Below the pieces are notes generated by a model that searched no databases, was not told the DNA's origin, and worked only from the letters and a program-made list of their open reading frames with translations. A stretch of DNA of 32,000 nucleotides from Candidatus Electronema halotolerans (GTDB lineage Bacteria > Desulfobacterota > Desulfobulbia > Desulfobulbales > Desulfobulbaceae). The stretch spans positions 2,520,001-2,552,000 of the forward strand of contig OW818675.1 in the NCBI GenBank assembly GCA_942493095.1, written 5' to 3'. A program made the translations under genes and the position numbers. Position 1 is the stretch's first letter. The number at the start of each line of letters is the position of its first letter. This document shows, piece after piece, positions 9,208 to 32,000 of this stretch.

Positions 9208-9249
9208 TTATATATCACTCAACATCTTGTCAGTTAATATCTTAAAAGA

Positions 9250-9972: not shown

Positions 9973-10077
9973 GAAAACCGCCTTATTTTAAATTTTCAAT
10001 AGTTACGCTTTGTTGACTCTGTCGTGCTGAAAACAAAAATAAGTTGCGCAATATATCATATATGGTATATTTCAGTT

Positions 10078-15408: not shown

Positions 15409-15485
15409 GGCGATGTAGCTCAGTCGGTTAGAGCATACGGCTCATATCCGTAGTGTCCGGGGTTCAAGTCCCTGCATCGCCACCA
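15409..15485 (+). tRNA. tRNA with CAT anticodon (elongator tRNA-Met, or tRNA-Ile2 if C34 is lysidinylated)
   Basis: 77 nt folded by hand. Acceptor GGCGATG/CATCGCC, D arm GCTC..GAGC, anticodon arm TACGG-CTCATAT-CCGTA, T arm CGGGG-TTCAAGT-CCCTG, encoded CCA. G1-C72 pairs and the anticodon stem lacks a GGG/CCC run, so it is not an initiator. Confidence 0.92.
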
Positions 15486-18359: not shown

Positions 18360-18680
18360 TCAGACGCAGCCAGTGGGTTTGGGCAGACCTGCCATCTTGC
18401 AGGCTCCCTTGCCCGGTCCAGACGGGAACAGCTCATAAATCCGCTTCAGCGGGAAGCCGGTGGTCTTGGACAGAATACGAACCATAGGCGCGATGCCGTT
18501 CTTCTGGTAGTATTCCTTCAGCGCGTCAATGACCTTTTTATGCTCTTCGGTCAGCTCGCCAATGCCTTCGATGCCTTTGACGTAATCAACCCAGTCCTCA
18601 TCCCACGACTCAGAGCCGTTAAGCAGGAAACCGTCCTCGTCAACATCGTAAGTTTTTGAGTTGTGTTCAATAGTTGGCAT
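18360..18680 (-). CDS. dsrC: DsrC (TusE/DsrC/DsvC family sulfur-relay protein with both conserved C-terminal cysteines)
   Basis: 106 aa ending ...GACKMAGLPKPTGCV. The penultimate Cys plus a second Cys 10 residues upstream distinguishes DsrC from TusE-type homologues. Confidence 0.93.
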   Translation of the reverse strand: MPTIEHNSKTYDVDEDGFLLNGSESWDEDWVDYVKGIEGIGELTEEHKKVIDALKEYYQKNGIAPMVRILSKTTGFPLKRIYELFPSGPGKGACKMAGLPKPTGCV

Positions 18681-18758
18681 AGTTACTCTCCTTGTGAAAA
18701 GATAAATGAAAGAAATGAACGCCTGTTCATGGCTGTGCCTGTCAGATGGTGAAAGGAA

Positions 18759-18787
18759 CTCATACTATATGAGGCGTTGTTTGTCAA
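18759..18787 (-). promoter_or_regulatory. candidate sigma70-type promoter for dsrC (TTGACA-17 nt-TATGAG on the minus strand)
   Basis: The minus strand reads TTGACA at 18787-18782 and TATGAG at 18764-18759. This predicts a leader of about 70 nt before the ATG at 18680. Motif match only. Confidence 0.3.
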
Positions 18788-18941
18788 GATTTCTTCGCGT
18801 TTTTTTGCCCAGCGAAAACTCTCTTTTGTCTGCCCGATACGCAATCATTGGCTTTTTGGCTGACAACATGCTATGTTGAGCCGATCACGTCAGCAAAGGA
18901 CTGCTCTTTTTTGGCTGGAATTTTATTGGAGACAAAGCAAC

Positions 18942-20819
18942 ATGTTGAATGTATTACGTAAACAGGCGCAATCGCCGCTGATTCAGGCCATAGTTATGGT
19001 CATTGTCATCGTTTTCGTCTTCTGGGGAGTGGGCACGCATCTGAGTGGCAGACGCAATGCGGTCGCCACAGTCAATGGCACGGAAATATCCTACCAAGAC
19101 TACATGCGCTCCTACGAGCAGGCGGTTGAAGGCCTGCGGCAGCAGTTCGGCGGCAAGCTGCCGCCTGGCTTTGTTGAGCAGCTCGGCATCAAGGATCAAG
19201 TCCTGTACCGAATGATTCAGACCGAGCTGCTCCAGCAGGGCGGCGAACAGGCAGGCATCAGGGTCAGCAATATGCCGGTGCAGAAAAGAATCAGCGAAAT
19301 GAAGGTGTTTCAAGAAAACGGCGCGTTCAATCTGCAACGCTATAAAGACATTCTCGCCCAGAACCGGATGACCCCGGCCTCGTTTGAAAAAGGGCTGCAA
19401 TCAGACTTGCGCACAGAACGGGTGCGGGAGGCGGTCAGCAGCTTTGCCCTGATCCCGGACAATGCCGCCCAACGCTGGCTGGCTTATGAGAACGAGGAGA
19501 TCAAGCTGGCTTATGTCAAGTTCGAGGCTGCTGATTTCACTGACAAGGTGCAGGTCGATGACAAGGAACTGGCTGCCTGGTTTGCAAAGAACAAGAGCAA
19601 GTATCTTTCCGAGCCAAAGGTGCGGCTCAAATATCTCCTCTTTCAGCAGAGCGATGACGAAAAGCAGGTGGAGCTGTCTGATGAGGAGCTGAAAGCCAAG
19701 TACGAGGAGGACAAGGATCGCTACCAACAGCCTGAGCAGCGTCATGCCCGGCATATCCTTTTCCGGGTTGAGCAGGGCGCGTCAGAAGCCGAACGGGTGG
19801 CTGCGAAAAAAAAGGCGGAGGAGGTGCTGGCCTTGGCTCAGGTCAAGGATGCTGATTTCGCCGCCTTGGCCAAACAGTATTCTGATGACACCACCAACAA
19901 GGATCAGGGCGGTGATCTTGGTTTTTTTGCCGCCGGACGGATGGTGCCCGCCTTTGATGCGGCGGTCTTTTCCATGCAGCCGGGCGAAGTCCGGGGGCCA
20001 GTGGAGACCGAGTTCGGTTTTCATCTTGTCAAGCTGGAGGAAATCCGCCCGGAGAGCGTGCGTGGCTTTGACGAGGTCAAGGACAGCATTGCTGCGGAGC
20101 TTAGGCGGCAGAAGGCCAAGAGCCTGACTTTTCAGCGGGCGGCTGCGGCTTATGAAGACATCATCCGGGCTGGCAGTTTGGACAAATATAGCCAGGAGGG
20201 CAAGGAGCAGGTGCGGCAGAGCGACTATTTCTCCCGCAAGGACGTGCCTGAAGGGCTGTCCAAGGATCCAAAATTCCTTGATGCTGCTTTCAAGCTGAAA
20301 AAAGGCGAGCTGTCCTCGGTGATTGAGCTGCGGAACGGCTATGCGGTTCTGTTTGCTGATGACCTGAAGGAGCCGGAGCTGCCGGAGCTGGCCGCAGTCC
20401 ATGACAAGGCGGCAGCGGATTTTGCCAAGGACAAGGCGGCGGAGCTGGCTGCCAAGGCTGCTGCTGATCTTTTGGCGGCGAGCCGGGAGAAAAAGGCCTT
20501 GCAGGCGGCTGAGGGCGCGGCAGTGACAGAAACAGCATTTCTCAAGCGTTCCGCCTCAGCAGGCGAGAATGTGCCGCCGCCGGTGCTTGAGGATGCCTTC
20601 AAGCTGGCGTGGAAAAATGATCTGCCTGCCCAGCCGGTGCAGGCGGACAATGCCTGGTTTGTCTATGAGGTCAAGGAGCGGCTGCCCGGCAGCGGCGAGG
20701 CGGATGAACAGATGAGCCGGCAGCTTTTGGCTGCTGCCCAGCGCGACCTGCTCACAGCCTGGCTGGGCAGCCTGCAGGCCAAGGCCAAGATTCAGATCAA
20801 CCAGACCCTGCTCAAGTAG
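18942..20819 (+). CDS. ppiD: periplasmic chaperone / peptidyl-prolyl isomerase PpiD
   Basis: N-terminal TM anchor (MLNVLRKQAQSPLIQAIVMVIVIVFVFWG), a SurA-N-like region and a parvulin domain (GDLGFF...GPVETEFGFHLVKLEE). Start at 18942 has GGAGA upstream; the ORF is open to 18873. Confidence 0.9.
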   Translation: MLNVLRKQAQSPLIQAIVMVIVIVFVFWGVGTHLSGRRNAVATVNGTEISYQDYMRSYEQAVEGLRQQFGGKLPPGFVEQLGIKDQVLYRMIQTELLQQGGEQAGIRVSNMPVQKRISEMKVFQENGAFNLQRYKDILAQNRMTPASFEKGLQSDLRTERVREAVSSFALIPDNAAQRWLAYENEEIKLAYVKFEAADFTDKVQVDDKELAAWFAKNKSKYLSEPKVRLKYLLFQQSDDEKQVELSDEELKAKYEEDKDRYQQPEQRHARHILFRVEQGASEAERVAAKKKAEEVLALAQVKDADFAALAKQYSDDTTNKDQGGDLGFFAAGRMVPAFDAAVFSMQPGEVRGPVETEFGFHLVKLEEIRPESVRGFDEVKDSIAAELRRQKAKSLTFQRAAAAYEDIIRAGSLDKYSQEGKEQVRQSDYFSRKDVPEGLSKDPKFLDAAFKLKKGELSSVIELRNGYAVLFADDLKEPELPELAAVHDKAAADFAKDKAAELAAKAAADLLAASREKKALQAAEGAAVTETAFLKRSASAGENVPPPVLEDAFKLAWKNDLPAQPVQADNAWFVYEVKERLPGSGEADEQMSRQLLAAAQRDLLTAWLGSLQAKAKIQINQTLLK

Positions 20820-20846
20820 CCGTCCCACCCCTGACAATCTGGCCGG

Positions 20847-20884
20847 ACAGGCGGGGAGGAGAGGCCCCGCCTGTTGCTTTTTTT
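20847..20884 (+). terminator. rho-independent terminator after ppiD
   Basis: ACAGGCGGGG (20847-20856) pairs with CCCCGCCTGT (20865-20874), followed by TGCTTTTTTT. It separates ppiD from the SNF2 gene transcriptionally. Confidence 0.8.
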
Positions 20885-20914
20885 CAATTTCAATCTTTGC
20901 CTGTGCAAAAAGAA

Positions 20915-23900
20915 ATGTCCCAGTCAAAGCAAAAAAACAGTCAGATGACCTTGGTCCGCAGCCTGCCGCCCTTGGAGCAGTTTCTGCTCACTTTCATCTC
21001 CATAGTCTATGAGCCGGTCTCGACCGCCTTTCTCAGCGCCTGTCTGACCGGTGCCGAGCTGCCCGGTCTGCCGCAGAAAATAGGCGGCGACGGGCTGGAG
21101 ACTGCGGTCAGCAGGCTGCGGGAAATCGGTTTGCTCAACGAGTTCAACCAGTGTCCGCCAGACCTTGCTGAACAGCTCACCCGGCAGGCGGCGGCAGAAG
21201 GCCGTTTTACCGAGATAGCGGCCCTGATTGAGCAGAAGGCCCCGGTCTCCTACATGTACGGCAAGTGGTCAACCCGCTGCCGCCGCGCCCTGCGCGAGTT
21301 CCGCATCGGCCTGCACAGCAGCGACTTTGACAAGATTGACGAGGCTGCCGTCTTTCTCAAGGAGCACTGCCGGGAGCGGGAAGGCGCAGACCCGCCTGCG
21401 GTGCAGATTGTGGCCGAGCATTTTGACGCGGACTGGTTCCGGGGCCTGCCCGGCTCGCTCCAGTTTTATCTGCTCAATGAAATATTCCGAAACTGCGGCG
21501 AGCAGGCCGTGGATTATCCCCAGGTTGCCGCCTTTCTGGAGGACGAGGAGAACATGACTCTGTCCGAGGATGAGCGGGTGCCTTTTCGGCGCATGCTGGC
21601 CGGCTACTATCTGCTCCGGGACAACGGCAAGCTGAACCAGCTCTTGGCCGCCCATCCTGATTCCTTCCCCGGCTCCGGCTTTGCCGGCAGCGCAGTCTTT
21701 CTCCAAGGCAAGATCGATGAGGCCTTGCAGCTGTTTGACCAGGACTTGGTCCTGCTCAACAAGTACGCTGGCCCGGAAGGCAGTTTCTTCTTCAACAGCA
21801 ACGGCCTGTTCTGCATCATGGCCCTGCTGGCCCGCCGCCAGCCGGACGACATTGCCGCCGCCCGCCGGGCTGCCGCCTTGGTTCTCAGCCGCTGTCAAGG
21901 CAGCCCGGAGGAGCTGTCCTTCCGTTTTCTGGAAGTGTATGCAGTGGCAGCGGACGGGGTTGTGCCGGATCTGCGCATTCTCACTGAAAGTTTTGAACAG
22001 GAGGAGCGCAGCCTCAACACCCTGACCGCCGCTTTGGCCCTGCACTGGCTGGGCGTGCGGCTGCCGGAAAAACTCCAGGCAGGATTGGAGAATCTTTGCA
22101 AAAAAGCCAAAAAGAACGGCTATTTTTGGCTGGCAATGGAGGCGGCCCAGCTGCTTGCCTCTGGCGACTCCAGCCGCAAGGACATGGTCAATGCCGCCAA
22201 GACCTTGGCCAAGAAGAGCGGCTGCCGCAGCCTTGTCCAGCTCATCGCCCCGGATGACGAGTCATGGGAGCAGAGCTTGGAGGAGCTGATCAGCATCACA
22301 GGCCGGGCGCGGCAGCCGGAAAAGAGAAGCCGTCTGGCTTGGACCGTGGAGTTTGCTGACGGCAGGATGACCCTGGCGGCCAAGGAGCAGAAAAAAAAGG
22401 CGGGCGGCAAATGGACCAAGGGCAAGGGCATTGGCCTCAACCGGCTGATGCCGCCGTCCAATGTTGATTTTCTCAGTCCGCAGGATCTGAAGATTTGCGC
22501 CGCCCTGCGTCAAGTCGGCGATCCCAGCTCCCGCAATGGCGGCTGCGACTTTGACATGAACGAGGCCCTGCCCGCCTTGGTTGGCCATCCTTTGGTCTTT
22601 CTGGAAAAAACCAATGTGCCGGTCGAGATTGTCGCGGGCGAGCCGGAGCTGATGGTCGAGTCGCAAGACGACCACCTCTTCATCCACTTTTTGCAGGAGA
22701 TCGGCGAAGGCCGGGTGACGGTCTGGCAGGAGACCCCGACCCGCTTCCGCATTATGGAAATCAACGAGGAGCACCGACGGGTGGCCGGCATCATCGGGCC
22801 GGGTGGCAAACGCTATCCAGAGGCGGCTGGCAGCCAAGTCTTGAGCGCCATCGGCAACATGGCCTCGTTCATGACCGTGCATTCCTCCATTGACGTGGGC
22901 AGCGCGGATCAGAATGTCAAAACCGTTGAGGCGGACCCGACCATTCACATTCATATTATTCCTTATGGCAGCGGCTTCCGGCTGGAGATGTTTGTCCAGC
23001 CCTTTTCCCGCAAAGGGCCGTATCTCAAGCCAGGCGCAGGTGTGGCCAATCTGATGGCTGAGGTCGGCGGGCGGCGGATGCAGACCCGGCGCAATCTTCG
23101 TCTGGAAGAGGAGAAGGCCCGCGAGATTGAGGAGAGCTGCCCAATTCTCGACCTTGCCACAGACTTGGCCCAGGAAAACGACCGCGAGTGGCATCTGCTC
23201 GACCCGGAAGAATGTCTGCAAGCCCTGCTGGAGCTGGAGGAAATCCGCGACCGGGCCGTGCTCGAATGGCCGGAGGGCGAAAAGCTGGCCGTGCGCAAAC
23301 AGGCAGGGATTGGCCAGCTCAATCTCAACATCCGCACCAGCCAGCAGGACTGGTTCGCCCTGTCCGGCCATTTGCAGATCGATCAGGATGAGATCATTGA
23401 CCTGAAAACTCTGCTGGACAAGGTGCGTGAGGCCCACAGCCGCTTCATTCCGCTTGGCAAGGGCCAGTTTCTTGCCCTGACTCAGGAATTCCGCAACCGC
23501 TTGGAGGAGCTGATCCGCTTCAGCGAAATCGGCGGCAAGAACACAGGCGACGCGAAAGAGGTGCGCATTCATCCGTTGGCTGCCTTGGCTTTGGATGATT
23601 TGACCAAGCAGGCTCAGACCCAGGCGGACGAGGGCTGGCGCAAACAGGTGGCCCGGATTGAGTTTGTTCAAGATTTTGTCCCGGAAGTGCCGTCAACATT
23701 GCAGGCCGAGCTGCGCGACTATCAGGTGGAGGGCTTTGTCTGGATGCTGCGCCTAGCCCATCTGGGCGTGGGCGGCTGCTTGGCTGATGACATGGGCCTT
23801 GGCAAAACCCTCCAGTCCTTAGGCGTGATTCTTAACCGGACCGAGGACGGCCCGACCTTGGTGGTTGCGCCGACCTCGGTCTGCATGAACTGGGAGCAGG

Positions 23901-25081
23901 AGGCGGCCCGCTTCGCTCCCACCCTGATCATCCGCAGCCTCAACAATGCCGAGGAGCGGAAAGCCACGATTGAGAACTTGGGCAGGCGGGATATTCTCAT
24001 CACCAGCTACACGCTGCTTCAGCAGGAAATTGACCTGCTTGACCAAGTCGATTGGCAGACCGTGGTCTTGGACGAGGCCCAGTCCATCAAGAATGCGGCC
24101 ACCAAACGCTCCAAGGCGGCCATGCGCCTGAAGGCCAAGTTCCGACTGATCACGACAGGCACACCAATAGAGAATCATCTCGGCGAGCTGTGGAATCTGT
24201 TCAACTTCATCAATCCCGGCCTGCTCGGCACCTACAAGCAGTTCAACAGCCGTTTCGGCATTCCGATTGAAAAGCACGGCGACCGCACTGCCCGGCGGCA
24301 GCTTAAAAAGCTGGTCCGGCCTTTCATGCTCCGCCGGATCAAGTCGCAGGTCTTGGAGGAGCTGCCGCCGCGCACAGAGATCACTCTGCGGGTGGAGATG
24401 AAGCGTTCGGAAATGCTCTTTTACGAGGCCGTGCGGCGGCAGGCTTTGGAGAACATCGAGGGCAGCGACCCCAAGAGCGGGCGGCATCTACAAATCTTGG
24501 CTGAGATCATGCGCCTGCGCCGGGCCTGCTGCAATCCCAAGCTGATTGACGAAAAGAGCAAGATTCCCTCAAGCAAGCTGGAGGTCTTTGGCGAGGTGAT
24601 TGAGGAGCTGCTGGAGTCGCGGCACAAGGCTTTGATCTTCAGTCAGTTCACCGGCCATTTAGCTTTGATCCGAGAGCACTTGGATGAAAAAGGCATCAGC
24701 TACAAGTATTTGGACGGCACCACTCCGGCCAGGGAGCGCATCCGGCAGGTCGATGAATTTCAGGCTGGTGAGGGCGACCTCTTCCTGATCAGCCTCAAGG
24801 CAGGCGGCTTGGGTCTGAACCTGACTGCGGCAGACTATGTCATCCACATGGATCCGTGGTGGAATCCAGCGGTTGAGGATCAGGCCGCTGACCGTGCCCA
24901 CCGCATTGGCCAGAAACGGCCTGTGACCGTCTATCGTTTGGTCACGGCCAACACGATTGAGGAGAAGATCGTCCGCCTGCATCAGGAAAAGCGCAATCTT
25001 GCCAATTCCTTGCTCGAAGGCACAGATGCGGGCGCACGGATGAGCGCGGACGAGCTGCTTGATCTGATCAGGGGAAGCTGA
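20915..25081 (+). CDS. SNF2-family helicase/ATPase with a long (about 930-aa) uncharacterised N-terminal region
   Basis: C-terminal core motifs: LRDYQVEGFVWM, ADDMGLGKT (motif I), DEAQSIKN (II), TGTPIEN (III), LIFSQFT, and GGLGLNLTAADYVIHMDPWWNPAVEDQAADRAHRIGQ (V/VI). The segment just upstream (DWFALSGHLQIDQDEIIDLKTLL...FIPLGKGQFLAL) resembles the bacterial SNF2-associated domain. Start is ATG 20915 or TTG 20897. Confidence 0.9.
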   Translation: MSQSKQKNSQMTLVRSLPPLEQFLLTFISIVYEPVSTAFLSACLTGAELPGLPQKIGGDGLETAVSRLREIGLLNEFNQCPPDLAEQLTRQAAAEGRFTEIAALIEQKAPVSYMYGKWSTRCRRALREFRIGLHSSDFDKIDEAAVFLKEHCREREGADPPAVQIVAEHFDADWFRGLPGSLQFYLLNEIFRNCGEQAVDYPQVAAFLEDEENMTLSEDERVPFRRMLAGYYLLRDNGKLNQLLAAHPDSFPGSGFAGSAVFLQGKIDEALQLFDQDLVLLNKYAGPEGSFFFNSNGLFCIMALLARRQPDDIAAARRAAALVLSRCQGSPEELSFRFLEVYAVAADGVVPDLRILTESFEQEERSLNTLTAALALHWLGVRLPEKLQAGLENLCKKAKKNGYFWLAMEAAQLLASGDSSRKDMVNAAKTLAKKSGCRSLVQLIAPDDESWEQSLEELISITGRARQPEKRSRLAWTVEFADGRMTLAAKEQKKKAGGKWTKGKGIGLNRLMPPSNVDFLSPQDLKICAALRQVGDPSSRNGGCDFDMNEALPALVGHPLVFLEKTNVPVEIVAGEPELMVESQDDHLFIHFLQEIGEGRVTVWQETPTRFRIMEINEEHRRVAGIIGPGGKRYPEAAGSQVLSAIGNMASFMTVHSSIDVGSADQNVKTVEADPTIHIHIIPYGSGFRLEMFVQPFSRKGPYLKPGAGVANLMAEVGGRRMQTRRNLRLEEEKAREIEESCPILDLATDLAQENDREWHLLDPEECLQALLELEEIRDRAVLEWPEGEKLAVRKQAGIGQLNLNIRTSQQDWFALSGHLQIDQDEIIDLKTLLDKVREAHSRFIPLGKGQFLALTQEFRNRLEELIRFSEIGGKNTGDAKEVRIHPLAALALDDLTKQAQTQADEGWRKQVARIEFVQDFVPEVPSTLQAELRDYQVEGFVWMLRLAHLGVGGCLADDMGLGKTLQSLGVILNRTEDGPTLVVAPTSVCMNWEQEAARFAPTLIIRSLNNAEERKATIENLGRRDILITSYTLLQQEIDLLDQVDWQTVVLDEAQSIKNAATKRSKAAMRLKAKFRLITTGTPIENHLGELWNLFNFINPGLLGTYKQFNSRFGIPIEKHGDRTARRQLKKLVRPFMLRRIKSQVLEELPPRTEITLRVEMKRSEMLFYEAVRRQALENIEGSDPKSGRHLQILAEIMRLRRACCNPKLIDEKSKIPSSKLEVFGEVIEELLESRHKALIFSQFTGHLALIREHLDEKGISYKYLDGTTPARERIRQVDEFQAGEGDLFLISLKAGGLGLNLTAADYVIHMDPWWNPAVEDQAADRAHRIGQKRPVTVYRLVTANTIEEKIVRLHQEKRNLANSLLEGTDAGARMSADELLDLIRGS

Positions 25082-25084
25082 CGG

Positions 25085-25612
25085 ATGCAGCCGGAGCGAA
25101 TTTTCCAGCGGCCTGCGCCGGTCGAGCGGCCAGATGCTGCGGCCCCGCGCTTCCTCCGCATTGGCAAGGCCAGCGTTGGTCTGCTTGGTCTGGACATTGC
25201 CCTCAATGCCGCGTTCCGTCAGCAGCTTCCAGAGCAGGAGGCTGCGGAGCTGCTCTTTGCCCGGATCAAGGAGCAGAACTATATTCCGCCTAGCTGCGAG
25301 GAGCAGTACCGCGAGGCCTTGCTGGCCGCCTATCGCAAGCATTGCGGCCTGAGCGAGGGTGACGAAGAAGGCTTGGTGATTCGCATTTTTGGCAAGGACT
25401 GCGTGAGCTGCAACGGCCTGCAAGCCATGCTCATCGACCTGCTGGACCGGCTCGGCTTGGCTGCGGACGTGGAGCTGATTCACGACCCGGACGAGATTGG
25501 CCGGGCCGGTCTGACCCGCACTCCGGCCCTGATGATCAACAGCAGAGTCAAAAGTGCCGGAATCGTTCCGTCTCCGGCGCAGGTGGAGCAGTGGCTTTTG
25601 GAGGAAGGGTGA
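25085..25612 (+). CDS. thioredoxin-fold CxxC protein (Thioredoxin_3-like C-terminal domain) with an unassigned N-terminal extension of about 95 aa
   Basis: 175 aa. The ATG lies 3 nt after the SNF2 stop. The C-terminal half, IRIFGKDCVSCNGL...TRTPALMINSRVKSAGIVPSPAQVEQWL, matches small redox-active disulfide proteins. I do not recognise the N-terminal half. Confidence 0.75.
   Translation: MQPERIFQRPAPVERPDAAAPRFLRIGKASVGLLGLDIALNAAFRQQLPEQEAAELLFARIKEQNYIPPSCEEQYREALLAAYRKHCGLSEGDEEGLVIRIFGKDCVSCNGLQAMLIDLLDRLGLAADVELIHDPDEIGRAGLTRTPALMINSRVKSAGIVPSPAQVEQWLLEEG
25513..25533. repeat. left copy of the perfect 21-bp direct repeat GACCCGCACTCCGGCCCTGAT
   Basis: Read directly. It lies inside the Trx-like gene (codons for LTRTPALM). 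Identity with the right copy stops at both edges (T vs C before the repeat, G vs A after it). Confidence 0.95.
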
Positions 25613-25626
25613 AGGGTGAATATGAA

Positions 25627-26676
25627 ATGACCCCAGTCAGATACATTGATCTTTTTGCCGGGGTCGGCGGCTTCCGCTACGCTGTGCAGACGGCGGCGGA
25701 AGAAGCGGGCCTTGCAGCCGAATGCGTTTTCAGCAGCGAGATTGACAAGGAATGCCAGCGGGTTTACCAAGAGAATTTTGCTGAGATGTCGCATGGCGAC
25801 ATAACTGCAATTCCGGCAGCATCGATTCCTGAACATGACCTGCTGTTAGCAGGATTTCCCTGCCAGCCATTCAGCATCATCGGCCAGCGAAAGGGATTTC
25901 AAGATGCCAGAGGCACGCTTTTCTTTGAGATCGCAAGAATATTGGAGGCAAAGAAGCCAGCTGCCTTTGTTCTGGAAAATGTCAAGCTGCTGGCCGGACA
26001 CAACAATGGAGAGACCTTAAAGATAATTCTGGATATTTTGCAGGAATTAGGGTATCACAGCGGCTATAAAATTCTAAATGCCTTGAATTTTGGCCTGCCG
26101 CAGAAACGAGAGCGGATTTTTATTGTCGGTTTCCGCGATTCCTGTTCATTTAACTGGCCTGTTGAGAAAATCCCAATGCAGCCACTCAAGGAAATTTTGG
26201 AGAAAAATGTTGCAGCAAGTTATTTTGCCTCTGATCATATCAGGAAAAAGCGACTGAGCCAAAAGCAGCCTTCAATAGAGCCGACCATCTGGCATGAGAA
26301 CAAATCCGGCAACATAAGCGCATATCCATTTTCCTGCGCCTTGCGGGCCGGAGCTTCATATAATTATTTATTAGTCAACGGAGAACGGCGGCTGACAGCG
26401 AGAGAAATGTTTCGTCTGCAAGGATTTCCAGAGGAATTCAAAATTATTTCCAGTTATGCGCAGGCACGAAAGCAGGCAGGAAACAGCTTACCTGTGCCTG
26501 TTGCCAAGGCAGTGATCAGGAATGTGCTTGAGGCTTGCGGGTGGATTACTGAACATGCAAACAGAACTGCTGTCCGCCAGCTTAATTTATTTGCAAGAAG
26601 AAATTACGATGAAATCGCCAAGACTGCGGACGGTGGAAAAATATCACCCGCCCTATCCGCTCAACAAATTTCCTGA
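25627..26676 (+). CDS. DNA (cytosine-5)-methyltransferase, HhaI-like core architecture
   Basis: Motif I DLFAGVGGF, motif IV GFPCQPFS, motif VI ENV, motif VIII QKRERIFIVGF, motif X GNSLPVP. From my memory of M.HhaI, the conserved blocks track it closely while the target-recognition region differs. Confidence 0.93.
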   Translation: MTPVRYIDLFAGVGGFRYAVQTAAEEAGLAAECVFSSEIDKECQRVYQENFAEMSHGDITAIPAASIPEHDLLLAGFPCQPFSIIGQRKGFQDARGTLFFEIARILEAKKPAAFVLENVKLLAGHNNGETLKIILDILQELGYHSGYKILNALNFGLPQKRERIFIVGFRDSCSFNWPVEKIPMQPLKEILEKNVAASYFASDHIRKKRLSQKQPSIEPTIWHENKSGNISAYPFSCALRAGASYNYLLVNGERRLTAREMFRLQGFPEEFKIISSYAQARKQAGNSLPVPVAKAVIRNVLEACGWITEHANRTAVRQLNLFARRNYDEIAKTADGGKISPALSAQQIS

Positions 26677-27343
26677 AAAATTTGCCGTCAATTTAGGTCG
26701 GGAGGTGGTGTATCTGCTTGCCAGCAGAGGAAAAGCCGCTCGCTTGGAAGGACAGGACTGGGAGGAAATTTTTGCCCGGCTGATTGGTGCGGAATGGAAG
26801 CCTTCCAATGTCGGCCTTGACGATATTGTCTTGGAGCAAACCGCTTGGGGAGCCAAAACTATTAAAAATTCCAAGCCTTCCACAGTTGCAAAAGTTCGTT
26901 TGATATCTGGCCGCAATTCTCCTGTTTACTCATTCGGCGATAAAGAAATCAGTGCCTGCGAGCCAAATGAACTGGGCGAAAAAATTCTTGCCATCTGGAA
27001 TGAACGAGTGGCGGGGATTCGCAAGATGTATCGACATGTCCGCACAGTGGTGCTGATCAAGTCCAACGATCTGCTTGAACTTGCTGCCTTTGAGTTTGAC
27101 ACGGTCATGTATCCTGCTGATCAGTATTGGTGGCAATGGAATGAACGCAACAATCTTGAAGGGTATGCCAAGGCTGATAATCAGCATATTTTCACGTGGC
27201 AGCCGCATGGCTCTCAGTTCACCATTATTGAAAATGTCCCTGAAGAACGGCTGGCGGTCAAAATAAAAGCACCGCTGCTGCTTGACCGCGATGAAGTGTT
27301 GCAGTCGATCAAATTTGATCCATCTTGGATAACCATCTTATAG
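26609..27343 (+). CDS. putative type II restriction endonuclease (partner of the m5C methyltransferase)
   Basis: 244-aa ORF overlapping the MTase 3' end by 68 nt, with the same low GC. It has a possible PD-(D/E)xK-like stretch GLDDIVLEQTAWGAKTIK. The assignment rests on position and composition; I do not recognise the family. Confidence 0.55.
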   Translation: MKSPRLRTVEKYHPPYPLNKFPEKFAVNLGREVVYLLASRGKAARLEGQDWEEIFARLIGAEWKPSNVGLDDIVLEQTAWGAKTIKNSKPSTVAKVRLISGRNSPVYSFGDKEISACEPNELGEKILAIWNERVAGIRKMYRHVRTVVLIKSNDLLELAAFEFDTVMYPADQYWWQWNERNNLEGYAKADNQHIFTWQPHGSQFTIIENVPEERLAVKIKAPLLLDRDEVLQSIKFDPSWITIL

Positions 27344-27357
27344 CGGTGGCATGTCAC

Positions 27358-27378
27358 GACCCGCACTCCGGCCCTGAT
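27358..27378. repeat. right copy of the perfect 21-bp direct repeat GACCCGCACTCCGGCCCTGAT
   Basis: Read directly. It lies in the 52-bp spacer between the endonuclease stop (27343) and the DUF362 start (27396). Confidence 0.95.
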
Positions 27379-27395
27379 ATCCTATTCAGATCGTC

Positions 27396-28637
27396 ATGAT
27401 TGAGAAAAAATATCGAGCAGATATTCTGCAAAGCCGCTCGTTCGACGAACTGCGGGAAAAAATAGCCGCCGGGCTGGAAAGATACCGCGACCTGCTGCCT
27501 GCCGACCCCAGGGCCAGCATTCTGCTCAAGCCGAATCTGAACAGCAACATGAACGCTCTGACCGGCAACACCACAGACCTGCGCCTCATCGCCGCTGTGC
27601 TGCTCTTTCTCAAGCAGGCAGGCTATGAGAACATCACCATTGGCGAGGGCACCAACAGCGGCTTTTACCGCAGCGGCATCAGCGTGATCACCCGGCTGCG
27701 GGTCGATACGCTGGCCCGGCACTATGGAGTCAAGTGCATTGACCTCAACTATTCCCAGCCGGTGCCCATTCCTTTTGCTGACGGCGTGCAGGCTGGCATT
27801 GCCAAGGAATGCGCAGAGGCGGATTTCTTCATCAACATGCCCAAGCTGAAAACCCATTTTGAAGCAGGCATGACCGTCTGTCTGAAAAATTTGATCGGCT
27901 GCTTGGTTGGCCAAGAAAACAAGAAAAAGACCCATCTGGCCTTGGCAGACAATATTGTCAGCATCACGGAAAACTGCCGCCCGCATCTGCACATTGTTGA
28001 CGGGCTGATGGCAATGGAAGGTCTGGGGCCGACCAAAGGCACGCCAGTGCGGACAGACACAGTTTTCATTGGCACTGATCCCTATTTTCTCGACCTGCTT
28101 GCGGCCCGCTTCGCCTCCTGCGACATCGACACCATCGGCCCGCTGCAAGCCGCCCGGCGGCGGGGCTTGATCAGCGAAGAACTGCGGCGGCAGGCAGAGG
28201 CATTTCCGCTGCCTGTTTATGAACGGCCTTTTGCCCCGCCCAAGGCCGGGCCGCTCGCCTCTTTCATCCATCACCCCAAACGGCAGAAATACTTTCTCGC
28301 CATCCGCAACACCCGGTTCTTCAATTGGGCTTGCAGCACGGAATTGGTCGGCAAGCTCCTCTTCCTGACTGACCTGCGCCAAGATGTCTTTTTGGATGAG
28401 GAAATGGACTGCGAGGGCCTGAGCGTAGTTGTGGACAAATGCGACCGCTGCGGCAAGTGCGCGGCCTACTGTCCGCTCGGCCTGTCCCTGCCAGAAGATA
28501 TAACCAACAAGGCCTGCATCCGCTGCCTCTACTGCTTCTGCGTCTGTCCGCAGGAGGCAATCCAATTTCACGGCAAACTCGGCTTCATGGCCGAGCAGAT
28601 CAAGCAGTACGACGCGCTGATCCGCAAGTCGGCCTGA
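27396..28637 (+). CDS. DUF362 domain protein fused to a 2x[4Fe-4S] ferredoxin domain
   Basis: 413 aa. N-terminal DUF362-like region (LKPNLNSNMNALTGNTTD..., MPKLKTHFEAGMT). C-terminal CDRCGKCAAYCP and CIRCLYCFCVCP cluster motifs. Confidence 0.85.
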   Translation: MIEKKYRADILQSRSFDELREKIAAGLERYRDLLPADPRASILLKPNLNSNMNALTGNTTDLRLIAAVLLFLKQAGYENITIGEGTNSGFYRSGISVITRLRVDTLARHYGVKCIDLNYSQPVPIPFADGVQAGIAKECAEADFFINMPKLKTHFEAGMTVCLKNLIGCLVGQENKKKTHLALADNIVSITENCRPHLHIVDGLMAMEGLGPTKGTPVRTDTVFIGTDPYFLDLLAARFASCDIDTIGPLQAARRRGLISEELRRQAEAFPLPVYERPFAPPKAGPLASFIHHPKRQKYFLAIRNTRFFNWACSTELVGKLLFLTDLRQDVFLDEEMDCEGLSVVVDKCDRCGKCAAYCPLGLSLPEDITNKACIRCLYCFCVCPQEAIQFHGKLGFMAEQIKQYDALIRKSA

Positions 28638-28896
28638 CTGTTCTCTGTGCGCACTGCGGGCTGTTTCAGCGAGCCTTGTGCATGAACAAGCGACATTTTT
28701 TGGCAGCACCCCGCAGTCTTTCCGAACCCCTTCCAGCATTTTTCTCAACCAGCAATGCCGCCATGTTATGCTGATTCATTCTCATACAGGCACTTGCATT
28801 CCCGTTTGGCATGGCTTACACTTTTTCTTGAAGACTGCCTGCTGAAAATGCGCCTGTCGAAGAGTGGGCATCACTGCTTTTGTCAAAGGAGGAAAA

Positions 28897-29829
28897 ATGT
28901 TCCTGTTCACAAGGCATTTCGTGATCTTCCTATTCTCTTTTTCGCTCTTGTCCCAAGCGGCGGCCAGCATTGGGGCTGCCAAGGAAAAGGTCATCGCTTT
29001 TGCTCAGGACACGATGGCCAATGATTATCGCAAAGAGCAGGTTTACGAGGTGCGTGATGCGCTTGCCGAGCATCCAGAAATCAAATTTGTCTATTCGGAT
29101 GCCAAAGGTCAGACTTCTCTGCTTATTCGTCAAATAGAGAAATTCATTGCCGCAAAGGTGGATATACTTATTGTCGGGACCAATGATCCTGATGCTGTTG
29201 TGCCAGTTGTTGAAAAAGCGCATCAGCTTGGCATTGCAGTCATCATTTTAGACAGAGGCGTTCATGCCAACCAATACACGGTGTTCATCAATTCAGATAA
29301 CATTGAAATTGGGGCAATCGGGGCGGAATATATTGCTGCACAGCTCAATGGCAAAGGCGATGTCCTGCTTTTTGAAGGCCTGCCCAAGGCGGATGTGACC
29401 CAGCTGCGCACCAAGGGCTTTCTTGATGCAATCAGCAAATACAAAGCAATCAAGGTGATCCGGCGGACAGGAAATTATCTGCGCAAGGATGCGATCATTG
29501 AAATGGAGAAACTTATCGCCCAAGGGATTCATCTTGATGCGATTTTCTCAGAAAGTGACAGCATGTTGAGCGGAGTGCGTTCCGCTTTGAAGCGCCACAA
29601 TCTGGATCCGGCAAAAAGTATTATGGTTGGCTGTGATTACACCAGCGAGGCGCAGGAGGCGATCAAAAAAGGTGCTCAGACCGCATCAATTCTTTTTCCT
29701 TTGGGAGGACATAAAACTGCCGAGATTGCCCTCAAGATTCTTCGAGGGGAAGAGGTTCCGAAACATATTATTATTCCTGTCAAACTTGTGACCAAAGAGA
29801 ATGTCAACGAAGTCGCGCCTGTTTTTTAA
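28897..29829 (+). CDS. periplasmic sugar-binding-type (Peripla_BP_4-like) solute-binding protein
   Basis: Start at 28897 has an AGGAGG Shine-Dalgarno, followed by signal peptide MFLFTRHFVIFLFSFSLLSQAAA. It has ribose-binding-protein-like blocks (VDILIVGTNDPDAVVPVVEKA, IAVIILDRG). No ABC permease or ATPase genes are adjacent. Confidence 0.8.
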   Translation: MFLFTRHFVIFLFSFSLLSQAAASIGAAKEKVIAFAQDTMANDYRKEQVYEVRDALAEHPEIKFVYSDAKGQTSLLIRQIEKFIAAKVDILIVGTNDPDAVVPVVEKAHQLGIAVIILDRGVHANQYTVFINSDNIEIGAIGAEYIAAQLNGKGDVLLFEGLPKADVTQLRTKGFLDAISKYKAIKVIRRTGNYLRKDAIIEMEKLIAQGIHLDAIFSESDSMLSGVRSALKRHNLDPAKSIMVGCDYTSEAQEAIKKGAQTASILFPLGGHKTAEIALKILRGEEVPKHIIIPVKLVTKENVNEVAPVF

Positions 29830-29833
29830 CAGG

Positions 29834-32000
29834 ATGAAGAGCCTCAAATTAACAGGCAAGCTTTCGCTGCTCATCATCTTTGGCATTATTGTTTCAACAG
29901 GAGCTTTGGGATTCTATTTTGACTCTTTTCTGAAAACAAACTTTCTTGAAGATGCGACTAAACGAATATTGTATGGTTTTCAGCGGCTTGAATTTGACAC
30001 GGTTGCCATATCTCAGGAATTGCTGGAGGGGATTTCCTTCATCCAAACTGATGAGCATTTTTTAGCTTCCATTGATCTGATCAACAACTATCAGGATAAA
30101 GACAACTACAACGCTGTCCTGCTCGATGAAGAGAAAAAAATTATCAACAGGCAGCTGCTCACCCGGGTTAAACTCTCTTTAAATCACCGCATAGTGCTGT
30201 ATGACAGAGATGAGGAGCTGGTCGCCTTTGTTGAACAGGAGCAAGATGGATATCGTCTTTATTTTGTTTCATACTCAGGTGGGCGGAAAACCTTGTGCAG
30301 CCGCCGTGAAGATCAGAAATTGTATGTCTGTGATCCTTTTCCTGCAACTCTGCCTGTTGATCTTCATCATCACTCCTATTACTCACATGCTTCGGCCAGG
30401 CAGGGCACGCTCACCTATCATATAGACAACGGGCATATCAGAATAAGTTCCCACTTGAGCATCTTTGATGATGCGGATGAGAATATATTGGCGCATATTG
30501 AGATGTCACATATTTTTCATGACGAATATTTCACAAACTTGTCTAAGGATATGGGACTTGTGATCAAAGGAAGCACGGACCGGAAAGACCATGTCAATGT
30601 GAATTTTCTATCGGCGACAACCAGTTTGGAGAATTTTTCCATTGCTGACGGGGAGGCATCCTGTTTCAGCACTGCAAAAATTGACACCTTGGACGGCGCT
30701 TTTTTCTACCATGTCGCGCTCAATAAAGAAAAGCTGCTCGTCTCATTAAAGAAGAACAGAGAACAGCTTTATATTATTGTCAGCATTGTTACTGCTCTGG
30801 TTCTGGTGCTGCTTCACTTTGTCTTTGCTAAAACCCTTGTCAAGCCGCTGGAACTGCTCATGGAGCAAATCCGCAAAATCGAAGCTCAGGATTACACACC
30901 ATCGACCTTGGCGCAAACTGGTGATGAACTGGAAACTATATCAAAAAACATCAACCAGTTGGCCAGCACCATCCAAGACCGCGAAGATGCCCTGCTGGCC
31001 TCGCAGAAAAACTTGGAGTATCTTTCGCATCATGATCCATTGACCGGTCTGCCCAACCGCCGTCTGTTCATGTCGCATTTGCAGCAGGCCCAAGGGCAGG
31101 AAGCCAGACTTGCGGTGCTCTTTCTGGACCTTGATGAATTCAAACAGATCAACGACACCTTGGGTCATGATGTCGGCGACCAGCTTCTTGTGGAAGTATC
31201 TTTGCGGCTGGCTGCGGTGATGCGTTCTTCAGGCATCTTGGCCCGCATCGGCGGGGATGAGTTCAATATTCTGCTGGAGCATGTTGCATCTGCTCATGAG
31301 GTCGAGGCGGCAGCTGAAGCGCTGCTGGCGGTGTTCAGGAAACCTTTTGCCTGCGCCGGACATGAGCTGAACACCAGTGTCAGCATTGGGGCGGCGTTCC
31401 ATCCTGATGACGGTGAAGATGCAGTCACCTTGATCAGACATGCCGACATGGCCATGTATCAGGCCAAGGCTACAGGCGGCAATGGCTGCTGCTTTTTCTC
31501 TGCTGACTTGGCAGCCCGGGTGCAGCAGCGCATCGACCGGATCAACGCCCTGAAAAGGGCACTGCTCCATCTTGATGAATTTCACCTGCTGCATCAGCCG
31601 AAAGTGTCCCTGCTGACCGGCAGGGTGGAAGGAATGGAGGCATTGATACGCTGGCAGAGTGCCAGCTTGGGCTTTATGCGGCCTGATCAGTTCATTCCGC
31701 TGGCGGAAGAGACCGGTTTGATCATTCCCTTGGGTGCATGGGTGGCGGAACAGGCCTTCAGAGATTTTCTGACCTTGCAAAAAGCAGGCTGTCCAATTCG
31801 CAAGGTCAGCATCAACCTTTCAGCTGTTCAACTCCTGAACAGCGATATCGTTGCCATGATTACAAAAGCTGTCAGCAGAACCGGCATCCTGCCGGAGCAG
31901 ATTGAACTGGAGATAACCGAAAGCTGCATTGCCATCAATGAGAAGAAAATTATTCAGACACTCAGGCAGCTCCGCAGCATGAAGATTGAGCTGGCCATAG
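29834..32000 (+). CDS. membrane sensor diguanylate cyclase/phosphodiesterase (extracytoplasmic domain-TM-HAMP-GGDEF-EAL), partial at the window end
   Basis: My own translation from ATG 29834, 4 nt after the PBP stop, stays open to 32000. TM1 LSLLIIFGIIVSTGALGF, then about 285 aa extracytoplasmic, then TM2 IIVSIVTALVLVLLHFVF and a HAMP domain. The GGDEF domain has DPLTGLPNRR and RIGGDEF; the EAL domain has EALIRW and ELEITES. It is absent from the ORF track because it lacks a stop. Confidence 0.9.
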   Translation, partial: MKSLKLTGKLSLLIIFGIIVSTGALGFYFDSFLKTNFLEDATKRILYGFQRLEFDTVAISQELLEGISFIQTDEHFLASIDLINNYQDKDNYNAVLLDEEKKIINRQLLTRVKLSLNHRIVLYDRDEELVAFVEQEQDGYRLYFVSYSGGRKTLCSRREDQKLYVCDPFPATLPVDLHHHSYYSHASARQGTLTYHIDNGHIRISSHLSIFDDADENILAHIEMSHIFHDEYFTNLSKDMGLVIKGSTDRKDHVNVNFLSATTSLENFSIADGEASCFSTAKIDTLDGAFFYHVALNKEKLLVSLKKNREQLYIIVSIVTALVLVLLHFVFAKTLVKPLELLMEQIRKIEAQDYTPSTLAQTGDELETISKNINQLASTIQDREDALLASQKNLEYLSHHDPLTGLPNRRLFMSHLQQAQGQEARLAVLFLDLDEFKQINDTLGHDVGDQLLVEVSLRLAAVMRSSGILARIGGDEFNILLEHVASAHEVEAAAEALLAVFRKPFACAGHELNTSVSIGAAFHPDDGEDAVTLIRHADMAMYQAKATGGNGCCFFSADLAARVQQRIDRINALKRALLHLDEFHLLHQPKVSLLTGRVEGMEALIRWQSASLGFMRPDQFIPLAEETGLIIPLGAWVAEQAFRDFLTLQKAGCPIRKVSINLSAVQLLNSDIVAMITKAVSRTGILPEQIELEITESCIAINEKKIIQTLRQLRSMKIELAI

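What the first reader, a model, noticed from the sequence alone, without database searches (positions are those of the whole stretch)
20915..28637. Co-directional five-gene array (SNF2 helicase, Trx-like, m5C MTase, endonuclease, DUF362-ferredoxin) as a possible composite defence or redox module
Seen in sequence: all five genes are on the plus strand with gaps of 3, 14, -68 and 52 nt. There is no recognisable intrinsic terminator between 20915 and 28637, so they can be read as one transcript.

Established knowledge: SNF2-type helicases combined with DNA methyltransferases occur in multi-gene defence systems. An example is DrmD with DrmMI or DrmMII in DISARM.

Inference, for a functional link: a helicase adjacent to an R-M pair could make an atypical helicase-assisted restriction system.

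Inference, against a functional link: GC composition and the 21-bp repeats indicate the M/R pair is a secondary insertion. The pre-existing operon was probably SNF2, Trx-like and DUF362-FeS, all of which are host-like in composition. I therefore rate the SNF2, Trx and DUF362 trio as the more likely genuine, uncharacterised conserved module. I rate the helicase plus R-M juxtaposition as possibly fortuitous.
Basis: inference. Interest (0 to 1): 0.6.

Follow-up and report, generated by a model that had tools for sequence, protein, structure and literature searches.

The report
Chance gene neighbours around an R-M cassette
The five same-strand genes are real, but they are not one system: a family-wide core SNF2 helicase gene is followed by a variable stretch that holds a relocated thioredoxin-like gene, a self-contained imported restriction-modification pair and an unrelated DUF362 iron-sulfur gene.

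Summary
Five plus-strand genes lie at 20915-28637 with gaps of 3, 14, -68 and 52 nt. There is no strong terminator between them. The M/R pair is low in GC, and an exact 21-nt repeat is present.

- Among 81 loci carrying the Trx-like gene, SNF2 is next to it in only two close relatives. A DUF362 orthologue is never within 10 kb.
- SNF2 is a vertically inherited core gene of Desulfobulbaceae (63-96% identity). It always follows dsrC and ppiD (7 of 7 contexts) and has a different downstream gene in almost every genome.
- DUF362 homologues (60-83% identity) lie in unrelated contexts.

The M/R pair is an autonomous Type II cassette. The same overlapping M-R pair occurs in five unrelated contexts without any helicase, twice followed by vsr. 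The pair was already present in the ancestor shared with the closest relative, which keeps only a 31-codon remnant of the methyltransferase gene.

The 21-nt repeat marks a recent local rearrangement that brought DUF362 next to the endonuclease gene.

Verdict: an ordinary mosaic junction. Two side notes: the endonuclease family is large and unannotated, and Ca. Electronema DNA avoids 6-bp palindromes to an extreme degree.

The parts
18360..18680 (-). dsrC-like gene. It is part of the conserved block dsrC / ppiD / SNF2.
   Evidence: PF04358, E 4e-33. Found upstream of ppiD-SNF2 in L107, L108, L109, L110 and L111.
18873..20819 (+). ppiD-like periplasmic chaperone / PPIase gene. It is the conserved upstream neighbour of SNF2.
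   Evidence: SurA_N_3 plus Rotamase domains. Adjacent to SNF2 in 7 of 7 contexts examined.
20846..20875 (+). Strong intrinsic-terminator-like hairpin with a T-run after ppiD. SNF2 therefore starts its own transcription unit.
   Evidence: 11-bp stem, 8 G-C pairs, tail GCTTTTTTTC.
20915..25081 (+). SNF2-family ATPase of 1388 aa. The motor domain is at aa 926-1385, after a conserved N-terminal region of about 900 aa with unknown function. It is a core, vertically inherited gene of Desulfobulbaceae.
   Evidence: PF00176 plus PF00271. Closest solved structure is the Sulfolobus SNF2/Rad54 core 1z63. Full-length orthologues are 63-96% identical in Electronema, Electrothrix and Desulfobulbus. The N-terminal region has 1943 representative relatives, most about 1380-1400 aa.
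25085..25612 (+). Thioredoxin-like protein of 175 aa. It has a conserved N-terminal domain and a C-terminal MTH895/ArsE-type Trx domain with a CVSC motif. The gene is intact and has been relocated here in one Electronema subclade.
   Evidence: PF13192 and TIGR00412. The alignment with 21 homologues runs to the C-terminus. The fold is closest to MtH895, 1ilo, TM 0.81. The usual neighbours elsewhere are rlmE-yebC-ruvCAB and dus or mscS.
25513..25533 (+). Copy 1 of the exact 21-nt direct repeat. It lies inside the Trx coding sequence and encodes TRTPALM.
25627..26676 (+). C5-cytosine DNA methyltransferase of a Type II R-M cassette. It has foreign composition.
   Evidence: PF00145, E 6e-87, full length. 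PADLOC MTase_II scores 355 bits. The catalytic domain resembles M.HhaI, but the target-recognition region does not align. GC3 is 0.49.
26609..27343 (+). Putative Type II restriction endonuclease of 244 aa. It belongs to a large unannotated family and overlaps the MTase gene by 68 nt.
   Evidence: 4020 homologues, the best 120 at 71-91% identity, all unnamed or 'hypothetical'. The same overlapping M-R pair occurs in L082, L083, L113, L114 and L116, with vsr downstream in two. The AF2 model has pLDDT 82.6; its best PDB matches are the restriction enzymes ThaI and DpnI, but these are weak (E 0.04, TM about 0.4).
27358..27378 (+). Copy 2 of the 21-nt repeat. It lies 14 nt after the REase stop codon and 17 nt before the DUF362 start codon. 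It is the scar of a recent rearrangement.
   Evidence: It is identical to this genome's own Trx segment, whereas the Trx of the closest relative differs at 5 of 21 positions. It is absent upstream of DUF362 homologues elsewhere.
27396..28637 (+). DUF362 protein with a C-terminal 2x[4Fe-4S] ferredoxin domain. Its composition is host-like, and it is not linked to the other genes in any relative.
   Evidence: PF04015, E 8e-42, plus Fer4. Loci L084-L091 (60-83% identity) have no SNF2, Trx, M or R nearby.
28864..29829 (+). Periplasmic sugar-binding-type protein with low GC. It probably forms a unit with the next gene and is not part of the array.
   Evidence: PF13407. GC3 is 0.49.
29801..32000 (+). 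HAMP-GGDEF-EAL membrane sensor gene. It overlaps the end of the binding-protein gene and runs off the window.
   Evidence: Open frame of at least 733 aa. PF00672, PF00990 and PF00563.

Best explanation
The array is a mosaic at the edge of a conserved housekeeping block. It is not a functional five-gene system. It has four parts.

1. dsrC / ppiD / SNF2 is an old, vertically inherited block of Desulfobulbaceae. SNF2 is a core ATPase of unknown cellular role and the last gene of that block.

2. The DNA downstream of SNF2 is variable between genomes. In one Ca. Electronema subclade, the family-wide Trx-like gene moved there from its usual site near rlmE-ruvCAB. It now sits 3 nt after SNF2, so it is probably co-transcribed with SNF2 (inferred).

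3. A two-gene Type II cassette, an m5C methyltransferase plus an overlapping ~245-aa endonuclease, was acquired horizontally just after Trx. The methyltransferase presumably protects host DNA, and the endonuclease presumably cuts unmethylated incoming DNA at the same, still unknown, site. No helicase is needed. Cassette autonomy is shown by context. Enzymatic activity is inferred.

4. A later local rearrangement left a 21-nt copy of the Trx coding sequence after the endonuclease gene and joined the cassette to an unrelated DUF362-ferredoxin gene. My reconstruction is a tandem duplication starting at 25513, followed by a deletion that may also have removed the vsr gene that follows this cassette in some genomes. 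That reconstruction is inference.
For: Trx side:
- Of 81 loci, SNF2 is adjacent only in L002 (with a yiaAB gene in between) and L081.
- No DUF362 orthologue lies within 10 kb. There are only weak paralogue hits in five loci, for example 26% identity in L037.
- The usual neighbours are rlmE (47 loci), yebC, ruvC and ruvA (39-40), dus (32) and mscS (23).

SNF2 side:
- Full-length orthologues are 63-96% identical across Electronema, Electrothrix and Desulfobulbus.
- dsrC and ppiD lie upstream in every context examined.
- The downstream gene differs: Trx, an aminotransferase, an unknown gene plus fabA/lpxA, a minus-strand unknown gene, or hisD-gidB.

DUF362 side: eight metagenome loci at 60-83% identity have none of the other four genes.

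Cassette:
- GC3 is 0.49-0.50, against 0.73-0.76 for the neighbours.
- The same M-R overlap occurs in five unrelated contexts without SNF2, with vsr downstream in two.
- DNA homology to other cassettes starts at the M start codon and ends at the R stop codon.

History:
- The closest relative, L081 (92-94% aa identity), keeps the Trx 3' end, the spacer and the first ~90 nt of the same MTase gene. It then switches to a DUF4062 gene.
- The second 21-mer equals this genome's own Trx sequence exactly. It is the only exact repeat of 18 nt or more in the window.

Defence libraries: every NCBIfam hit for SNF2 is far below its cutoff. DrmD scores 105 against 950, DpdE 41 against 500 and ZorD 239 against 1500.
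Against: - The tight spacing and the lack of a strong internal terminator allow read-through transcription of all five genes. A regulatory link cannot be excluded without RNA data.
- The SNF2-Trx junction, with a gap of 0-3 nt, is kept in three close genomes (window, L081, L107). This could reflect selection rather than recency.
- SNF2 scores high on PADLOC 'DpdE' and 'ZorD' models, up to 612 bits.
- The endonuclease assignment rests on context and a weak fold match. No catalytic motif could be assigned.
- The DUF362 contigs are short (1.4-10 kb), so a link at longer range cannot be seen.
Confidence: 0.8

Rival explanations
1. Composite defence system. The SNF2 helicase works with the M-R pair as a helicase-assisted restriction system resembling DISARM, Dpd or Zorya.
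For: - The genes are co-directional and closely spaced.
- PADLOC DpdE, ZorD and DrmD models hit SNF2 at 612, 399 and 138 bits. A DrmMII model hits the MTase at 238 bits.
Against: - SNF2 orthologues in six other genomes lie in the same ppiD context with no R-M genes nearby.
- The M-R cassette occurs in five other contexts without any helicase.
- The curated NCBIfam models for DrmD, DpdE and ZorD are missed by a wide margin.
- No DrmA/B/C, DpdA/B/C or ZorA/B/C partner is present among the array proteins.
- The MTase fits a plain Type II MTase model better (355 bits) than DrmMII.
- L081 lost the R-M pair but keeps SNF2-Trx.
Confidence: 0.04
2. Conserved SNF2-Trx-DUF362 redox or chromatin module, interrupted by a secondary R-M insertion.
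For: - All three genes have host-like composition, with GC3 of 0.73-0.76.
- The 21-nt repeat flanks the R-M region.
Against: - No DUF362 orthologue lies within 10 kb of Trx in any of 81 loci, or next to SNF2 in any of six other contexts.
- DUF362 homologues sit elsewhere.
- Removing the DNA between the repeats would truncate Trx by 25 conserved residues. The repeat is therefore not a simple target duplication around an insert.
- L081 has Trx, an MTase remnant and DUF4062, not Trx-DUF362.
Confidence: 0.03
3. Lineage-specific functional coupling of SNF2 and the Trx-like protein only. After relocation, Trx became translationally coupled to SNF2 in one Electronema subclade and now modulates it, or is co-regulated with it, for example through redox control. 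This is compatible with the main explanation for the other three genes.
For: - The gap is 3 nt in the window and 0-3 nt in L081 and L107, three genomes at 92-96% identity.
- Trx is also downstream of SNF2 in Electronema sp. PJ, with yiaAB in between.
Against: - The adjacency is absent from the other 78 Trx loci, including other Electronema genomes (L001, L004, L007), and from SNF2 loci L108-L111.
- The genomes that share the adjacency are so close that shared ancestry explains it without selection.
Confidence: 0.12

Closest known systems
Type II restriction-modification systems with a C5-cytosine methyltransferase, arranged M-R-(Vsr). HhaI is the closest solved methyltransferase.
   Same: - The PF00145 MTase is full length. 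Its catalytic domain closely resembles M.HhaI (E 8e-65).
- A small downstream gene overlaps it, and this overlap is kept in every context.
- The cassette is foreign in composition and patchily distributed across phyla.
- vsr follows in some copies.
   Different: - The target-recognition region does not align with M.HhaI, so the recognition site is unknown.
- The endonuclease matches no Pfam, NCBIfam, PADLOC or PDB sequence family.
- vsr is missing in this window.
DISARM (DrmA/B/C with DrmD plus DrmMI, or DrmE plus DrmMII)
   Same: An SNF2-type ATPase and a DNA methyltransferase lie on the same strand.
   Different: - There are no DrmA, DrmB (DUF1998) or DrmC (PLD) genes.
- SNF2 scores 105 bits against a cutoff of 950 on the curated DrmD model.
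- SNF2 is a core gene found without any MTase in relatives.
Bacterial SNF2 proteins with the SNF2_assoc region (PF08455), such as the SCO1167 and pilus-regulating Snf2 families
   Same: - The motor domain is similar, with NCBIfam hits of 454 and 421 bits.
- There is a weak PF08455 hit just before the motor domain.
- It is a long single-chain protein in a housekeeping context.
   Different: - The scores are far below the equivalog cutoffs of 1200 and 1100.
- The ~900-aa N-terminal region forms its own widespread family of ~1390-aa proteins and has no solved relative.
R-M gene mobility with flanking direct repeats ('insertion with long target duplication', described for Helicobacter by Nobusato and Kobayashi; recalled from memory, not checked here)
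   Same: A direct repeat of host sequence brackets the right side of an R-M unit.
   Different: - The repeat is only 21 nt.
- The left copy lies 80 nt inside Trx, so the bracketed DNA includes native Trx sequence.
- The Trx-M junction predates the repeat. The repeat therefore marks a later rearrangement, not the original insertion.

Membership tests
Conserved gene cluster or operon (SNF2-Trx-DUF362) | Orthologues are co-localised in several independent lineages. | tested here: not met
   - Among 81 Trx loci, SNF2 is adjacent in two close relatives and a DUF362 orthologue in none.
- Six SNF2 contexts have no DUF362.
- Eight DUF362 loci have no SNF2 or Trx.
DISARM | Core genes drmA (helicase), drmB (DUF1998) and drmC (PLD) are present. 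| tested here: not met
   The Pfam and PADLOC scans of the five array proteins, and the Pfam scans of the neighbouring ORFs, show none of these.
DISARM | The SNF2 protein meets the DrmD model. | tested here: not met
   NCBIfam DrmD_b scores 104.8 bits against a cutoff of 950. DrmD scores 49.9 against 610.
Dpd (7-deazaguanine DNA modification) system | The helicase meets the DpdE model and lies with dpdA/B/C. | tested here: not met
   - NCBIfam DpdE scores 40.7 bits against a cutoff of 500.
- PADLOC DpdE models score high (612 bits), but no DpdA/B/C-like partner is in the array or among the Pfam-scanned window ORFs.
Zorya type I | The protein meets the ZorD model and lies with zorA/B/C. | tested here: not met
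   NCBIfam ZorD scores 239 bits against a cutoff of 1500. There are no ZorA/B/C hits.
Type II R-M system (m5C) | An intact C5-cytosine methyltransferase is present. | tested here: met
   - PF00145 covers profile positions 2-322 of 324, E 6e-87.
- TIGR00675 scores 301.7 bits against a cutoff of 100.65.
Type II R-M system (m5C) | An adjacent endonuclease gene travels with the methyltransferase as a unit. | tested here: met
   The overlapping M-R pair occurs in L082, L083, L113, L114 and L116, in unrelated flanks. DNA homology is limited to the two genes.
Type II R-M system (m5C) | The endonuclease has a nuclease fold and catalytic motif. | tested here: inconclusive
   - The AF2 model has pLDDT 82.6.
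- Its best PDB matches are ThaI and DpnI, but at E 0.04 and TM 0.27-0.41.
- Residues D71, D72, K83 and K86 are invariant, but no canonical PD-(D/E)XK motif could be assigned.
Type II R-M system (m5C) | Sequence-specific cleavage is blocked by the cognate methylation. | not testable with these tools
   This needs cloning and expression, methylome sequencing and cleavage assays.
MTH895/ArsE thioredoxin-like family | A small Trx fold with a CxxC motif. | tested here: met
   - PF13192 scores 54.6 bits against a cutoff of 24.8.
- The CVSC motif is invariant.
- The fold matches 1ilo with TM 0.81.
- TIGR00412 scores 51.4 bits, below its cutoff of 62. The ~95-aa N-terminal domain is additional to the family.

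The most novel reading that the evidence does not exclude
The ~245-aa protein encoded at 26609-27343 represents a very large, highly conserved and completely unannotated family of Type II restriction endonucleases. The family has at least 4020 clusters at 90% identity, and the best 120 members are 71-91% identical. It always overlaps an HhaI-like m5C methyltransferase gene. Its fold is not clearly related to any solved nuclease, and its recognition site is unknown. Separately, the SNF2-Trx coupling could be a newly evolved partnership in one cable-bacterium subclade.
Probability: 0.35. Interest if true: 0.35.

Novelty: new member of a known kind. Interest (0 to 1): 0.2.

Why it matters
Mostly as a caution. 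Tight co-directional spacing with no terminator does not make a system. A PADLOC 'DpdE/ZorD/DrmD' hit on an SNF2 protein next to a methyltransferase would easily be over-called as a novel helicase-assisted defence system.

The useful positive results are modest:
- A clean example of a mobile M-R cassette, its decay (the L081 remnant) and a rearrangement scar at a synteny breakpoint in a cable-bacterium relative.
- A pointer to a large restriction-endonuclease family that current domain libraries miss.
- A conserved ppiD-SNF2 pairing for a ~1390-aa SNF2 family of unknown function.

Tried and rejected
- Sequence searches of the endonuclease against Pfam, NCBIfam, PADLOC and PDB found nothing. 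The plasmid collection gave no match. The phage collection gave one unannotated contig at 51% identity. Source names are all 'hypothetical'.
- The fold search gave only weak restriction-enzyme matches.
- I tried to read the recognition site from the MTase. The target-recognition region does not align with M.HhaI. Palindrome statistics show many avoided sites, so none can be assigned to this cassette.
- I tested whether the 21-mer is a simple target-site duplication around the R-M insert. It is not. Excising the DNA between the copies would remove the conserved C-terminus of Trx, and the Trx-M junction is shared with L081.
- I looked for the 21-mer upstream of DUF362 homologues. It is absent.
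- An exact-sequence look-up of the window's Trx protein found no contig.
- PADLOC scans of DUF4062 (L081), of the CHAT-like neighbour of DUF362 in L085 (CHAT-like by my reading of its sequence, no domain scan run) and of other unannotated window ORFs gave nothing. I therefore do not call the region a defence island.
- tRNA and Rfam scans found only one tRNA-Met at 15409-15485, unrelated to the array.


Full report
**1. Observation**

The five plus-strand ORFs exist as described.
- SNF2: 20915-25081. The mechanical ORF begins at a TTG at 20897.
- Trx-like: 25085-25612.
- m5C methyltransferase (M): 25627-26676.
- Putative endonuclease (R): 26609-27343.
- DUF362-ferredoxin: 27396-28637.

The gaps are 3, 14, -68 and 52 nt.

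Pfam confirms the following:
- SNF2-rel_dom plus Helicase_C
- Thioredoxin_3
- DNA_methylase, full length
- DUF362 plus 4Fe-4S motifs

The fourth protein matches nothing in Pfam, NCBIfam, PADLOC or PDB sequences.

A strong terminator hairpin with a T-run lies at 20846-20875, between ppiD and SNF2. Inside the array there are only weak consensus matches within coding sequence. The count for the whole scanned stretch (20, against 14.6 +/- 3.6 in shuffles) is not above chance.

The exact 21-nt repeat at 25513-25533 and 27358-27378 is real. It is the only exact repeat of 18 nt or more in the window.

GC3 is 0.49 for M and 0.50 for R. It is 0.76 for SNF2, 0.75 for Trx and 0.73 for DUF362.

**2. Organism and context**

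Homologues of Trx and SNF2 place the window in a relative of the freshwater cable bacteria (Ca. Electronema, Desulfobulbaceae).

The window upstream of the array is housekeeping DNA: era, ftsY, lon, tRNA-Met, a Zn-peptidase gene, nadK, proC, dsrC and ppiD.

Downstream of DUF362 lies a low-GC periplasmic binding-protein gene. It overlaps a HAMP-GGDEF-EAL sensor gene that runs off the window.

**3. Test of the SNF2-Trx-DUF362 module**

*From the Trx side.* A profile of Trx homologues retrieved 80 loci from different Desulfobulbales genomes, with up to 10-kb flanks. One metagenome contig of a very close relative (L081) was added. tblastn with all window proteins gave these results:
- SNF2 lies beside Trx only in L081 and in L002 (Electronema sp. 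PJ, with a yiaAB gene in between).
- No DUF362 orthologue lies within 10 kb in any locus. There are only weak paralogue hits in five loci, such as 26% identity in L037.
- No other window gene is shared.

The usual neighbours of this Trx gene are rlmE, yebC and ruvCAB on the opposite strand upstream (39-47 loci). A dus-like gene (32 loci) or an mscS-like gene (23 loci) lies downstream.

*From the SNF2 side.* Full-length orthologues of about 1385 aa range from 96% down to 63% identity across Electronema, Electrothrix, Desulfobulbus and relatives. This is a vertical pattern.

In every context examined (L002, L107, L108, L109, L110, L111/L112), dsrC and ppiD precede SNF2. The gene after SNF2 differs:
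- Trx in L107
- yiaAB then Trx in L002
- an aminotransferase gene in L108
- an unknown gene plus fabA and lpxA in L109
- a minus-strand unknown gene in L110
- hisD-gidB in L111

The N-terminal 900 aa has 1943 representative relatives, mostly proteins of 1380-1400 aa. This is a widespread family with a uniform architecture.

*From the DUF362 side.* Eight metagenome loci at 60-83% identity show none of the other four genes. One of them has a gene I read as CHAT-like (no domain scan run) upstream instead.

The trio is therefore not a conserved module.

**4. The M-R pair**

Homologues of the 244-aa protein number at least 4020 clusters. The best 120 are 71-91% identical. They come from distant lineages such as Achromatium and various Deltaproteobacteria, and all are unnamed or 'hypothetical'.

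In five independent contexts the gene overlaps the 3' end of a PF00145 methyltransferase gene by about 30-60 nt. These contexts are L082, L083, L113, L114 and L116. The flanks are unrelated and there is no helicase. A vsr gene follows in two of them.

DNA similarity between the window and these cassettes begins at the M start codon and ends at the R stop codon.

The methyltransferase's catalytic domain is closest to M.HhaI (E 8e-65), but the target-recognition region does not align. The recognition site is therefore unknown.

An AlphaFold model of the endonuclease has pLDDT 82.6. Its best PDB matches are the restriction enzymes ThaI and DpnI, but only weakly (E 0.04, TM 0.27-0.41).

I conclude that this is an autonomous Type II R-M cassette. 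Its autonomy is shown by context. Enzymatic activity is inferred.

**5. History of the junctions**

The closest relative, L081, is 92-94% identical in SNF2 and Trx. Its DNA is collinear with the window through the Trx 3' end, the short spacer and the first ~90 nt of the same methyltransferase gene. It then switches to a DUF4062 gene, leaving a 31-codon remnant. The cassette was therefore already next to Trx in the common ancestor and was later lost in L081.

The second 21-mer is identical to this genome's own Trx segment. L081's Trx differs at 5 of the 21 positions. No DUF362 locus elsewhere carries the 21-mer.

Removing the DNA between the copies would delete the conserved C-terminal 25 residues of Trx. 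The repeat is therefore not the footprint of the original insertion.

The simplest account is a tandem duplication starting at 25513, followed by a deletion. The deletion left 21 nt of the second copy and fused the cassette to the DUF362 gene. It possibly also removed vsr. This is my inference. It means the R-DUF362 junction is the youngest junction in the array.

**6. Defence-system membership**

PADLOC models named DpdE, ZorD and DrmD hit SNF2, with scores up to 612 bits. The curated NCBIfam equivalogs are all missed by a wide margin:
- DpdE: 41 bits against a cutoff of 500
- ZorD: 239 against 1500
- DrmD: 105 against 950

None of the partner genes of those systems is present. The methyltransferase fits a plain Type II model (355 bits) better than DrmMII (238 bits). 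The PADLOC hits reflect the shared SNF2 motor domain.

**7. Verdict**

The array is a fortuitous juxtaposition at a synteny breakpoint. Its parts are:
- a core SNF2 gene
- a Trx-like gene relocated in one lineage
- an imported R-M cassette
- a DUF362 gene joined recently

Read-through transcription is possible, and the 0-3-nt SNF2-Trx junction may couple those two genes in this subclade. There is no comparative support for a five-gene or three-gene system.

**8. Side observations**

- The window and other Electronema loci avoid 6-bp palindromes to an extreme degree. In the window, 11 of 27 testable palindromes have an observed/expected ratio below 0.2, against 0 of 1908 non-palindromic hexamers. 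CGGCCG occurs 0 times against 27 expected. Electrothrix and other Desulfobulbaceae loci do not show this.
- DUF362 shares a Pfam clan with the LarA N-terminal domain, according to PMC11770544.

Noticed in passing
Whole window 1-32000; also L001, L002, L007, L107, L109: Extreme avoidance of 6-bp palindromes. In the window, 11 of 27 testable palindromic hexamers have an observed/expected ratio below 0.2: CGGCCG 0 vs 27, GCCGGC 5 vs 31, GAGCTC 0 vs 15.5, TCCGGA 0 vs 15, CCGCGG 0 vs 13, CCCGGG 2 vs 14, GGCGCC 1 vs 11, CCATGG, CGCGCG, GGGCCC and AAGCTT. None of 1908 non-palindromic hexamers falls that low. The median palindrome ratio is 0.43 in the window and 0.20-0.50 in the other five Ca. Electronema-type loci (0.67 in the 90% relative L108). 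It is 0.77-0.92 in Electrothrix and other Desulfobulbaceae loci. This suggests a long history of many 6-cutter R-M systems in this clade.
   Followed up: partly
Window 26609-27343; L082, L083, L113, L114, L116: The putative endonuclease belongs to a very large family of at least 4020 clusters at 90% identity, the best 120 at 71-91% identity. It has no Pfam, NCBIfam, PADLOC or PDB sequence match, and every source calls it 'hypothetical'. It always overlaps an m5C methyltransferase gene and is sometimes followed by vsr.
   Followed up: partly
Window 18360-25081; L002, L107-L112: The arrangement of a divergent dsrC gene, ppiD and a ~1390-aa SNF2 gene is conserved across Desulfobulbaceae, from 63% to 96% SNF2 identity. 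The ~900-aa N-terminal region of the SNF2 protein has 1943 representative relatives of the same length and no solved or annotated relative. Its function is unknown.
   Followed up: partly
L081 2009-3047: In the closest relative, the methyltransferase gene is cut down to a 31-codon remnant and is followed by a DUF4062 gene. This shows gene turnover at the site downstream of Trx. PADLOC does not recognise the DUF4062 protein.
   Followed up: yes
Window 9000-10700: A low-GC island (GC 0.37-0.38, against about 0.60 for the flanks). It holds an unannotated 240-aa ORF (9250-9972, minus strand) and a Gp49/HigB-like toxin gene (10024-10428, plus strand). This is probably an acquired toxin-antitoxin locus.
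   Followed up: no
Window 28864-32000: A low-GC periplasmic binding-protein gene (GC3 0.49) overlaps the start of a HAMP-GGDEF-EAL membrane sensor gene that runs off the window. This is a likely ligand-sensing c-di-GMP signalling pair, unrelated to the array.
   Followed up: partly
Window 25085-25369 (Trx residues 1-95); alignment A1: The Trx-like protein carries a conserved N-terminal domain of about 75 residues: a beta-hairpin plus three helices, with invariant R22, I26, G32, L33, G35, D37 and N65-Y-I-P68. It has no family assignment and is specific to Desulfobulbales homologues.
   Followed up: partly
L114 4121-6738 (Achromatium sp. WMS3): In Achromatium, the same M-R cassette also sits directly downstream of a thioredoxin gene, although of the unrelated PF00085 type. 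This is probably coincidence.
   Followed up: no
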